This document shows positions 43,321-45,954 of a DNA stretch of 64,000 nucleotides, piece by piece. The position numbers and the translations under genes were made by a program. How positions within the stretch are numbered: position 1 is the stretch's first letter; the number at the start of each line of letters is the position of its first letter. Under the pieces are notes generated by a model. It did not search any database. It worked only from the letters and a program-made list of their open reading frames with translations, and had not been told where the DNA came from. The stretch lies in the NCBI RefSeq assembly GCF_055900595.2, contig NZ_CM148325.1; one strand, given 5' to 3'.

Positions 43321-44979
<1,659 letters not shown>

Positions 44980-44994
44980 TGATGTGCCACATCC

Positions 44995-45460
44995 GGCATG
45001 GTATGCCGGATGTGGCGTATGCTGATAAGACGCGCCAGCGTCGCATCAGTCAACCGGCTCGGGCGTTAGATCGGATGCGGCGTAACCGCCTTATCCGACC
45101 TACGGGGTGGAGCACTTCACAGCGGTGTAGGCCTGATAAGACGCGCCAGCGTCGCATCAGGCTACCGGCTTGGGCGTTAGATGTCGGATGCGGCGTGACC
45201 GCCTTATCCGACCTACGGGGTGGAGCACTTCACAGCGGTGTAGGCCTGATAAGACGCGCCAGCGTCGCATCAGGCAACCGGCTCGGGCGTTAGATGTCGG
45301 ATGCGGCGTGACCGCCTTATCCGACCTACGGGGTGGAGCACTTCACAGCGGTGTAGGCCTGATAAGATGCGTCAGCGTCGCATCAGTCAACCGGCTTGGG
45401 CGTTAGATGTCGGATGCGGCGTGACCGCCTTATCCGACCTACGGGGTGCCACACTTCACG
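44995..45460. repeat. Tandem BIME/REP array (about four copies of an approximately 110-bp unit)
   Basis: gcgccagcgtcgcatcag recurs at about 45040, 45150, 45260 and 45370, each paired with gatgcggcgt(a/g)accgccttatccgacctacggggtggagcacttcacagcggtgtaggcctgataagacgcgcc; these generate the overlapping Arg-rich artefact ORFs at 44979-45774. Confidence 0.7.
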
Positions 45461-45465
45461 GCAGT

Positions 45466-45954
45466 TTAGCGGACTACCGCGTTGTCAATTTTCTCTTCCG
45501 CCTTCCAGATGCGGTATTTCACATCTACATTGTCTGGCGTATACACCACGATCGGCAGCTTGCTGTTGTAACGCAGCATTCCAGCATCGCCCAGATACGC
45601 GGTGACAAATTTCTTCTCTTTCTTGCCATCCGGGCAGGCCATCATCGTGGAAACCGGCGAGCTAACTTTATCAAAGACGTAATAATCATAGCCCCAGCCT
45701 TCCAGCGTTTTGCTTTCCAGCTTCCCGCCGAGACGATGCAAATTGCAATCGACTTCCAGCGTCTGACCGATTAACAGTTCTACTTTCAGGGTAGATTCAT
45801 CTTCTTGCGGGGTTAACTGAATCACCTGACGCTTCATGCCTTTTTCAGCTTGCGGATAAGGCGCGATTTTTTCCAGTGGCTGGACGCTCTCTGCCGCCCA
45901 GGCGGAAGTGGTAGCGAAAGCGGCAAACAATACTGCAGGTAGAATGGTCTTCAT
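45466..45954 (-). CDS. eco: Ecotin, periplasmic serine-protease inhibitor
   Basis: 162-aa ORF with signal peptide [20 protein letters not shown]; recognised ecotin. Confidence 0.93.

What the first reader, a model, noticed from the sequence alone, without database searches (positions are those of the whole stretch)
44995..45460. Tandem four-copy BIME/REP array between mqo and eco
About four head-to-tail copies of a unit of roughly 110 bp, each containing two REP palindromes in opposite orientation, fill the convergent mqo/eco gap. They create three overlapping Arg-rich phantom ORFs in the six-frame track. Arrays like this are copy-number-variable, are targets for DNA gyrase, IHF and Pol I binding, and affect mRNA 3'-end stability. 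This is noteworthy structure but not a gene.
Basis: seen in the sequence. Interest (0 to 1): 0.3.

Follow-up and report, generated by a model that had tools for sequence, protein, structure and literature searches.

The report
Known BIME-2 repeat array, four units

Summary
Window 45016-45465 holds four head-to-tail units (111, 113, 113 and 113 bp; TRF period 113, 3.9 copies, 95% match). Each unit contains a z2 REP and an inverted y REP. The array fills the 486-bp gap between mqo (+, ends 44979) and eco (-, ends 45466).

By the published definition this is a BIME-2 array. K-12 has six units at the same locus. There it is a documented in vivo DNA gyrase target: 6 cuts in Espeli & Boccard 1997, and 11 ciprofloxacin Topo-Seq sites.

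Unit number varies between genomes, always by whole units in register. In a 58-genome sample 38 had 1 unit, 2 had 3, 1 had 4, 4 had 5, 12 had 6 and 1 had 7. All eight complete genomes with identical flanks have the same 486-bp gap, so this is not an assembly artefact.

The Arg-rich ORFs are by-products of the repeat: 113 mod 3 = 2, none matches Pfam, and none is annotated.

IHF binding belongs to BIME-1, and no IHF site is present here.

Already known; low interest.

The parts
43333..44979 (+). mqo (malate:quinone oxidoreductase) CDS, the left flank. Its transcript reads into the gap.
   Evidence: ORF of 548 aa. Annotated as mqo in matching RefSeq genomes.
44982..45020 (.). mqo-proximal hairpin: an 18-bp stem (14 perfect pairs at 44986-44999 / 45003-45016, plus 2 G.U and 2 Watson-Crick pairs) with a 3-nt loop. 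The extended stem starts 2 nt after the mqo stop and the perfect core 6 nt after it. It is locus-specific and not part of the 113-bp unit.
   Evidence: Inverted repeat I1 and folds. One copy per genome in 4083 genomes. The K-12 counterpart (MG1655 2305063-2305108, dG -33.4) is listed among bidirectional terminators, genes eco:mqo, REP161. Comparison of species suggests it derives from a z2 3' arm remnant paired with a y 5' arm.
45016..45126 (.). BIME-2 unit 1 (111 bp). The z2 REP has a degenerate foot (GTATGC instead of GTAGGCC; stem 45022-45049). The y REP is 45071-45103 and has lost 2 bp at its 5' foot.
   Evidence: Rfam naRNA4 60.9 bits on the - strand
45127..45239 (.). BIME-2 unit 2 (113 bp): z2 REP 45127-45162 (GTAG on +), head-to-head linker 45163-45182, y REP 45183-45216 (CTAC on +), tail-to-tail linker 45217-45239.
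   Evidence: Rfam naRNA4 71.8 bits on the - strand
45240..45352 (.). BIME-2 unit 3 (113 bp): z2 REP 45240-45275 and y REP 45296-45329.
   Evidence: Rfam naRNA4 75.2 bits on the - strand
45353..45465 (.). BIME-2 unit 4 (113 bp), the terminal unit: z2 REP 45353-45388 and y REP 45409-45442. Its last linker is the terminal type (GCCACAC...GGCAGT) and abuts the eco stop. The y REP ends 23 nt from the eco stop.
   Evidence: Rfam naRNA4 59.3 bits on the - strand, just under the gathering score of 59.5
45466..45954 (-). eco (ecotin) CDS, the right flank. Its transcript reads into the array on the - strand.
   Evidence: ORF of 162 aa. Annotated as eco in RefSeq genomes.

Best explanation
This is a four-unit allele of the BIME-2 (y + z2 REP) array that occupies the mqo-eco intergenic gap throughout the genus Escherichia. 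In K-12 it is called REP161. It is non-coding.

Shown here:
- The anatomy: GTAG-footed imperfect palindromes of z2 and y type in alternating orientation, joined by a linker of about 20 nt head-to-head and about 23 nt tail-to-tail.
- Unit number changes by whole 113-bp units, in register, between fixed boundaries.
- The same four-unit architecture occurs in eight independent complete genomes.

Taken from the literature for the six-unit K-12 allele:
- DNA gyrase cleaves the array in vivo, about once per unit and mainly in y REPs.
- The separate mqo-proximal hairpin is a mapped bidirectional terminator.

Inferred for this window:
- At the DNA level, the four y REPs give about four strong, transcription-independent gyrase sites. 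They lie where positive supercoils from two convergent genes meet.
- At the RNA level, mqo transcripts end at the hairpin right after the stop codon. eco transcripts must cross the whole array to reach that hairpin, so the array is in effect a variable-length, hairpin-rich eco 3'UTR of about 150 to 830 nt, depending on strain. It may partly terminate transcription and block 3' exonucleases, as was shown for REP325.
- Unit gain and loss most likely arise from misaligned pairing of the 95-100% identical 113-bp repeats (replication slippage or unequal sister exchange), with occasional conversion between units.
For: Anatomy and periodicity.

Definition of BIME-2 (z2 + y, tandem copies, short variable linkers, unit number variable between strains): Ton-Hoang 2012, PMC3333891.

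This locus in the literature: 'BIMEs2 ... [quoted passage not shown] Gyrase prefers y over z2 REPs, and the signal rises with rifampicin.

The hairpin: listed as a bidirectional terminator, eco:mqo, REP161. No sigma-70-like promoter and no canonical hairpin-plus-T-run terminator lies in the gap.

REP325, another y + z2 array, acts as a partly Rho-dependent terminator and an mRNA stabiliser. REPs between convergent genes go with higher expression of both genes.

Population data:
- Gap lengths fall in classes of 149, 262, 375, 486, 601, 714 and 829 bp.
- Unit 'barcodes' show clean unit-level differences. MG1655 is u05-u06-u07-u06-u08-u09 and DH1 is u05-u06-u07-u06-u09. BL21 is EC0026B plus two units.
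- A clustered 3-nt difference in the last linker between the window and its closest relatives suggests conversion.

Other species: the array is at the same locus in E. albertii, E. whittamii and Escherichia sp. E1V33.
Against: - No expression, 3'-end or gyrase data exist for this strain or for a four-unit allele. All functional evidence is transferred from the six-unit K-12 allele or from REP325.
- Covariation within the locus is not significant: 71 of 500 shuffles reach the observed score. The hairpins are supported by sequence and by family-level knowledge only.
- Harris et al. report that REPs do not uniformly change mRNA half-lives and that effects depend on context.
- About two thirds of the sampled genomes carry a single unit, and one (UPEC-774U) has a damaged z2. 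A long array is therefore clearly dispensable.
Confidence: 0.9

Rival explanations
1. Assembly artefact: the four copies result from a mis-assembled (duplicated or collapsed) repeat rather than the true genome.
For: Tandem repeats of 113 bp at 95-100% identity are hard to resolve with short reads. No read data could be examined.
Against: - The four units all differ from one another by SNPs or an indel.
- All eight complete RefSeq genomes with 100%-identical flanks, from dog and human hosts and from at least Korea and Japan, have exactly the same 486-bp gap.
- The two that were fetched share units u01-u02-u03 in the same order.
- Other genomes show a regular ladder of whole-unit alleles.
Confidence: 0.03
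2. The Arg-rich ORFs in the array encode real small proteins.
For: ORFs of 104, 78 and 157 aa are open on the + strand, and shorter ones on the - strand.
Against: - The period of 113 is not a multiple of 3, so the same unit is read in all three frames in turn. That alone creates the overlapping ORFs.
- Arg is 13-31% because of the CGN/GCG-rich palindromes, against 3-5% in the flanking genes.
- No ORF reaches a Pfam threshold.
- PGAP annotates no CDS in the gap in any of the 14 genomes inspected.
- Unit number varies from 1 to 7, which would rewrite or delete any such protein.
- One ORF runs antisense through eco.
Confidence: 0.01
3. The units are naRNA4-type genes for nucleoid-associated small RNAs. 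Processed from the - strand transcript, they would bind HU and bridge DNA cruciforms to condense the chromosome.
For: The Rfam naRNA4 model (RF02564) matches all four units on the - strand at 75.2, 71.8, 60.9 and 59.3 bits against a gathering score of 59.5. The - strand is the eco sense strand, so such RNAs could come from eco read-through. Qian 2015 proposed HU-naRNA4 condensation for REP325.
Against: - The Rfam model is in effect a model of any y-linker-z2 BIME-2 unit. It also hits the rcsB-rcsC BIME at 81.6 bits.
- The head-to-head linker here is 7 nt longer than, and unrelated in sequence to, the constant REP325 linker (alignment).
- No promoter lies in the gap.
- The 2026 preprint from a group that includes the original senior author reports that REP325/naRNA4 does not measurably compact the nucleoid and that REP-REP contacts are not seen in Hi-C.
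Confidence: 0.08
4. Unit number changes are driven by the REP-associated tyrosine transposase (TnpA_REP/RAYT), which cleaves and rejoins at REPs, rather than by homology-driven slippage or recombination.
For: Both REP types keep the GTAG tetranucleotide and the internal stem mismatch that TnpA_REP needs for binding and cleavage. Ton-Hoang 2012 showed strand transfer in vitro that assembles multiple REPs, and proposed it as an explanation of BIME-2 copy variation.
Against: - Every difference seen is an exact 113-bp unit, in register, between near-identical repeats. Simple misalignment predicts exactly this.
- One unit was lost within the K-12 laboratory lineage (DH1 versus MG1655) between two units that differ at only two positions.
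- No junction at the CT cleavage dinucleotides that departs from the register was seen.
- The data cannot separate the two mechanisms.
Confidence: 0.15

Closest known systems
BIME-2 at eco-mqo in E. coli K-12 (EcoCyc REP161; the BIMEs2 interval 'eco>-<mqo' in Sutormin et al. 2019; studied by Espeli & Boccard 1997)
   Same: Same locus, same flanking genes, same unit (113 bp, z2 + y, same linkers), and the same left hairpin and right boundary.
   Different: Four units here against six in MG1655/W3110. Unit 1 has a 2-bp deletion at the foot of its y REP. The unit sequences are a different set (u01-u04 against u05-u09). In the window two of the 18 pairs of the hairpin stem are G.U rather than Watson-Crick.
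REP325 / naRNA4 array between yjdM and yjdN (Rfam RF02564)
   Same: A tandem array of y + z2 REP pairs; in K-12 both arrays have six units. The Rfam model scores the units here above or at its threshold. By analogy it probably works as a 3'UTR terminator and stabiliser.
   Different: It lies between tandem genes, not convergent ones. Its core is 77 nt with a constant 13-nt linker, whereas the linker here is 20 nt and unrelated in sequence. The claimed HU and nucleoid role is disputed.
BIME-1 (z1 + y with an L linker; RIB/RIP elements that bind IHF)
   Same: Also made of two inverted REPs in an intergenic region.
   Different: BIME-1 is single-copy, uses z1 rather than z2, and has a conserved long linker with an IHF site. 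Here there are tandem copies, z2 REPs and no IHF consensus.
rcsB-rcsC BIME in the same window (33033-33226)
   Same: Also lies between convergent genes, also has a 113-bp spacing between its two units, and also matches naRNA4.
   Different: Only two units. It has a different, 13-nt head-to-head linker (ATTCAGTGCAAAT), and its first y REP is degenerate.

Membership tests
BIME-2 | Built of one y and one z2 REP in inverse orientation | tested here: met
   The z2 REP is GTAGGCCTGATAAGACGCGCCAGCGTCGCATCAGGC on the + strand. The y REP is GTCGGATGCGGCGTGACCGCCTTATCCGACCTAC, whose GTAG is on the - strand. The Rfam alignment to the y-linker-z2 consensus agrees.
BIME-2 | Each REP is an imperfect palindrome of 30-40 nt, with a conserved GTAG 5' to its foot and an internal mismatch | tested here: met
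   GTAG/CTAC is present in units 2-4 for both REPs. In unit 1 the z2 foot is degenerate (GTATGC). The z2 REP has an A.C/A.G bulge and the y REP a C.T mismatch. Overall 96% of cells are paired.
BIME-2 | Occurs as multiple tandem copies, with unit number variable between strains | tested here: met
   3.9 copies at period 113. One to seven units in other E. coli genomes.
BIME-2 | Short S linker between the REPs and a flanking motif of type s, l or r | tested here: inconclusive
   The linkers are about 20 nt (head-to-head) and about 23 nt (tail-to-tail). The reference sequences of the S, s, l and r motifs were not available to me. Ton-Hoang 2012 states that BIME-2 linkers vary in length and sequence.
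BIME-2 | Cleaved by DNA gyrase in vivo | not testable with these tools
   Documented for the six-unit K-12 allele of this locus: 6 cuts, and 11/7/2/5 Topo-Seq sites. Not measured for this allele.
BIME-1 | z1 + y, single copy, long L linker with an IHF site | tested here: not met
   The REPs are z2, not z1. There are four tandem units. WATCAANNNNTTR has no match in 44980-45465; the only three matches in the window lie elsewhere.
naRNA4 (Rfam RF02564) | Score at or above the Rfam gathering threshold of 59.5 bits | tested here: met
   75.2, 71.8 and 60.9 bits for three units on the - strand. The fourth scores 59.3, just below the threshold.
naRNA4 (Rfam RF02564) | A discrete, processed, HU-bound RNA with a role in nucleoid condensation | not testable with these tools
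   No expression data. The role itself is disputed. The linker differs by a 7-nt insertion.
Substrate of TnpA_REP (RAYT) / REPIN | A REP hairpin with 5' GTAG and a stem mismatch, next to an inverted REP | tested here: met
   Sequence features are present and match the requirements. Cleavage and mobilisation were not tested, and I did not look for a tnpA_REP gene in the window.
Intrinsic (hairpin + U-tract) terminator, for the hairpin at 44982-45020 | A G+C-rich stem followed by a run of U | tested here: not met
   The stem is strong: 18 bp, and -33.4 kcal/mol in the K-12 listing. No T-run follows on either strand (sequence). It is nevertheless listed as a bidirectional terminator in K-12.

The most novel reading that the evidence does not exclude
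The number of units could be a selected, heritable 'dial' rather than neutral slippage noise. In the sample the distribution is bimodal: 38 of 58 genomes have 1 unit, 17 of 58 have 5-7, and only 3 of 58 have 3-4. The number also changes among genomes with near-identical flanks (1, 2, 4 and 6 units) and even within the K-12 laboratory lineage. Because the only catalogued terminator lies at the mqo end, unit number sets both the length of the eco 3'UTR (about 150 to 830 nt) and the number of strong gyrase sites between two convergent genes. It could therefore tune ecotin or Mqo expression, or the strength of a local supercoiling barrier.
Probability: 0.1. Interest if true: 0.35.

Novelty: already known. 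Interest (0 to 1): 0.1.

Why it matters
It matters little beyond correct annotation.

- The region should be labelled as a BIME-2/REP array (REP161), not as genes. The Rfam naRNA4 hits here should be read as 'BIME-2 unit', not as evidence of a specific sRNA gene.
- The locus is a convenient natural allelic series: 1 to 7 identical-register units between the same two genes, with K-12 gyrase and terminator data already available. It could be used to test whether BIME-2 dosage affects gyrase recruitment, supercoil insulation or 3'UTR-mediated expression.
- It is also a small length marker for strain typing, and a caution for short-read assemblies.

Tried and rejected
- IHF site scan: no match in the gap. 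The IHF claim was dropped for this array.
- Promoter and terminator consensus scan: no promoter, and no hairpin-plus-T-run terminator, in the gap.
- Pfam scan of five ORFs: nothing reaches a threshold.
- Covariation on 20 distinct units from 10 alleles: the hairpins are formed, but covariation is not significant, with 71 of 500 shuffles reaching it. It is not used as evidence.
- yojO, which appeared under the BLAST match, lies between eco and napF and not in the array.
- RRS 'replication risk sequences' (222-bp GC-rich repeats) were considered because 222 is about 2 x 111. They are at dusC and lysO, not here.
- CRISPR-like array: rejected, because the whole 113-bp unit repeats and there are no unique spacers.
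- The genome-contig scan with the tail-to-tail linker returned only three non-coli Escherichia species and not the E. coli representative. Its allele may deviate from the exact pattern, as in UPEC-774U, but I did not verify this.
- The Liang, Rudd & Deutscher 2015 paper on REPs within 15 nt of stop codons could not be fetched. I cite it only as described in PMC12306157.
- The search for papers on mqo plus ecotin plus REP found nothing relevant.

Full report
**1. The observation**

The sequence between 44980 and 45465 is strongly periodic. Tandem Repeats Finder reports one array at 45022-45459, with period 113, 3.9 copies, 95% matches and score 785. An independent seed-and-extend search gives the same 111/113/113 spacing.

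Read in register, the units are:
- 45016-45126 (111 bp, with a 2-bp deletion)
- 45127-45239
- 45240-45352
- 45353-45465

The flanks are mqo (43333-44979, + strand) and eco (45466-45954, - strand). Both are named from RefSeq annotation of matching E. coli genomes. The genes are convergent and the gap is 486 bp.

The signal is far above chance:
- The y-REP core motif occurs 10 times in the window against 0.70 expected.
- Both strands of the gap fold with z about -6.5 relative to dinucleotide shuffles, and every REP forms its own hairpin.
- The array is 61.7% G+C, against 51.7% for the window.

**2. Anatomy**

Each unit has four parts:
- a z2-type REP: GTAG GCCTGATAAGACGCG-CCAG-CGTCGCATCAGGC, with its GTAG foot on the + strand;
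- a head-to-head linker of about 20 nt: AACCGGCTYGGGCGTTAGAT;
- a y-type REP in the opposite orientation: GTCGGATGCGGCG-TGAC-CGCCTTATCCGAC CTAC;
- a tail-to-tail linker of about 23 nt: GGGGTGGAGCACTTCACAGCGGT.

Both palindromes carry the internal mismatches typical of REPs. Across 20 distinct units from 10 alleles, 96% of cells are paired, against 27-45% when the 3' partners are slid. Covariation within this narrow sample is not significant (71 of 500 shuffles), so I do not lean on it.

To the left of the array is a separate palindrome, 44982-45020. It has 14 perfect pairs at 44986-44999 / 45003-45016, extended to 18 pairs by two G.U and two Watson-Crick pairs, with a 3-nt loop (sequence). The extended stem starts 2 nt after the mqo stop codon and the perfect core starts 6 nt after it. 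It occurs once per genome, so it is not a dispersed REP.

**3. The ORFs**

They are artefacts of the repeat:
- 113 mod 3 = 2, so consecutive units are read in all three frames.
- Arg is 13-31% because of the CG-rich palindromes, against 3-5% in mqo and eco.
- None reaches a Pfam threshold.
- PGAP annotates no CDS in the gap in any of the 14 genomes inspected.
- yojO, which appeared under the BLAST hit, lies between eco and napF.

**4. Comparison with other genomes**

A query made only of the two flanks finds the locus in 5,421 of 5,426 complete E. coli genomes. The two flanks are joined in 5,373 of them.

In an even-step sample of 58 genomes the gap lengths fall into discrete classes that correspond to 1, 3, 4, 5, 6 and 7 units:

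| Units | Genomes |
|---|---|
| 1 | 38 |
| 3 | 2 |
| 4 | 1 |
| 5 | 4 |
| 6 | 12 |
| 7 | 1 |

A two-unit allele also exists. All eight genomes whose flanks are 100% identical to the window have the same 486-bp gap. The two I fetched (Z0117 and AST85) carry the same first three units in the same order. They differ from the window only in the last unit: one SNP plus a clustered 3-nt patch in the last linker, which looks like conversion between units. This rules out an assembly duplication for practical purposes.

Genomes whose flanks are 99.5-99.8% identical carry 1, 2 or 6 units. Unit 'barcodes' show clean unit-level changes:
- MG1655: u05-u06-u07-u06-u08-u09
- DH1, another K-12 derivative: u05-u06-u07-u06-u09
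- BL21: the five units of EC0026B plus two more

One B2 strain (UPEC-774U) has a 139-bp gap in which the 5' arm of the z2 REP is deleted.

**5. Other species**

An exact-pattern scan of species-representative genomes with the tail-to-tail linker of this unit found it only at the mqo-eco locus of three species:
- E. albertii: 772-bp gap, 7 y and 6 z2 REPs
- E. whittamii: 307-bp gap, 3 y and 2 z2 REPs
- Escherichia sp. E1V33: 376-bp gap, 3 units

The array is therefore old and tied to this locus within the genus.

The left boundaries suggest where the E. coli palindrome came from. In E. whittamii the gap begins with a remnant of a z2 3' arm (GCGCCGCATCCTGCA), then a short linker, then a full y REP. 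In E. coli and E1V33 the y REP appears truncated after GGCGTA, a sequence that recurs before the next z2 REP. The remaining y 5' arm pairs with the z2 remnant. Between E. whittamii and E. coli one pair changed on both sides (GCCGCATCC/GGATGCGGC to GCCACATCC/GGATGTGGC). This is a single event, and the reconstruction is an inference.

**6. What is known about this locus**

Ton-Hoang et al. 2012 define the classes as follows:
- BIME-2 is z2 + y in tandem copies, with short variable linkers and strain-variable unit number.
- BIME-1 is z1 + y, single-copy, with a long L linker carrying the IHF site.

The array fits BIME-2 and fails BIME-1. It has z2 REPs, it is tandem, and no IHF consensus occurs in the gap.

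Table DS3 of Sutormin et al. [quoted passage not shown] It records 11 ciprofloxacin, 7 rifampicin + ciprofloxacin, 2 microcin B17 and 5 oxolinic acid gyrase cleavage sites. The main text states that gyrase prefers y over z2 REPs and that BIME-2 sites behave as transcription-independent strong sites.

The supplement of Harris et al. 2026 lists the K-12 counterpart of the mqo-proximal hairpin among bidirectional terminators that overlap REPs. The entry gives MG1655 2305063-2305108, an 18-bp stem, -33.4 kcal/mol, genes eco:mqo and element REP161.

The same paper shows that REP325, another six-unit y + z2 array, is a partly Rho-dependent terminator and an mRNA stabiliser rather than a nucleoid organiser. 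It also reports that REPs between convergent genes go with higher expression of both genes.

The Rfam naRNA4 model was built from REP325. It matches all four units on the - strand at 59-75 bits against a threshold of 59.5. It equally matches the rcsB-rcsC BIME in this window. I read these hits as 'BIME-2 unit', not as evidence of a specific sRNA.

**7. How it most likely works**

Shown: the anatomy, the in-register variation and the reproducibility of the four-unit allele.

From the literature on K-12: gyrase cleavage of the array, and terminator status for the hairpin.

Inferred for this window:
- There should be about four y-REP gyrase sites, at the point where positive supercoils from the two convergent genes meet.
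- mqo transcripts should end at the stop-proximal hairpin. A stable REP-like hairpin within 15 nt of a stop codon is reported to reduce translation (ref. 17 as cited in PMC12306157). The core of this hairpin starts 6 nt from the mqo stop, while the nearest y REP is 23 nt from the eco stop.
- eco transcripts must cross the whole array to reach the only catalogued terminator. The array is therefore in effect a hairpin-rich eco 3'UTR whose length depends on unit number.
- Unit gain and loss are most simply explained by misalignment of near-identical 113-bp repeats. A contribution from the REP-associated transposase cannot be excluded, because both REPs keep the GTAG and the mismatch it requires.

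**8. Verdict**

The element is a known kind at a known, already studied locus, and the four-unit allele is just one rung of a natural ladder.

Interest is low (0.1). The only mildly open question is whether unit number has any phenotypic consequence.

Noticed in passing
window 44982-45020: A locus-specific 18-bp hairpin sits just after the mqo stop: the stem starts 2 nt after it and the perfect core 6 nt after it. It is not part of the repeat unit. It is listed as a bidirectional terminator in K-12. It appears to be a chimera of a z2 3' arm remnant and a y 5' arm, with one compensatory G-C to A-T change relative to E. whittamii. It lies within the 15-nt stop-proximal range reported to affect translation.
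   Followed up: partly
window 33033-33226: A second BIME lies between the convergent genes rcsB and rcsC. It has two units, again spaced 113 bp apart, but with a different 13-nt head-to-head linker (ATTCAGTGCAAAT). Its Rfam naRNA4 scores are 81.6 bits (+) and 62.7 bits (-), higher than any unit of the mqo-eco array.
   Followed up: partly
L009 (E. coli SCU-316, NZ_CP054371.1) 2460-3930: An IS3-family element is inserted exactly in the loop of a z2 REP (GACGCGTCA|IS|GTCAGCGTCGC). On its other side is a BIME from the gatY region, so mqo and eco are no longer adjacent. This looks like an IS-mediated rearrangement between two REP-targeted IS copies. It resembles IS1397-type REP targeting, but I did not identify the IS. 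eco and yojO are frameshifted pseudogenes in that record.
   Followed up: partly
L001 vs L015 (MG1655 vs DH1Ec169): Two K-12 derivatives differ by exactly one 113-bp unit (6 against 5). Unit u08 is missing in DH1. This suggests a change on a laboratory timescale, or a collapse in one of the assemblies.
   Followed up: no
L001, L005, L015 vs other loci (eco CDS): RefSeq annotates eco as 510 nt (WP_000712249.1) in the K-12 and BL21 records but as 489 nt in most other genomes. The start-codon choice for the same gene is inconsistent.
   Followed up: no
window 36887-36980 (-) and 62379-62452 (-): MicF sRNA (116.8 bits) and a tRNA gene were found by the Rfam gathering scan. This fits the K-12-like gene order rcsB/rcsC ... 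micF ... mqo-eco-napF.
   Followed up: no
Genome-contig scan: The E. coli species representative was not returned by the exact linker pattern, although most E. coli alleles examined contain it. Its allele may carry a variant linker like the 139-bp UPEC-774U allele, but this was not verified.
   Followed up: no
alignment A1 (units from 10 alleles), columns 16, 80, 82, 83 vs 84: Four of the five single-sided stem changes keep a G.U wobble when read on the + (mqo-sense) strand and would be A.C mismatches on the - strand. The numbers are too small to interpret.
   Followed up: no
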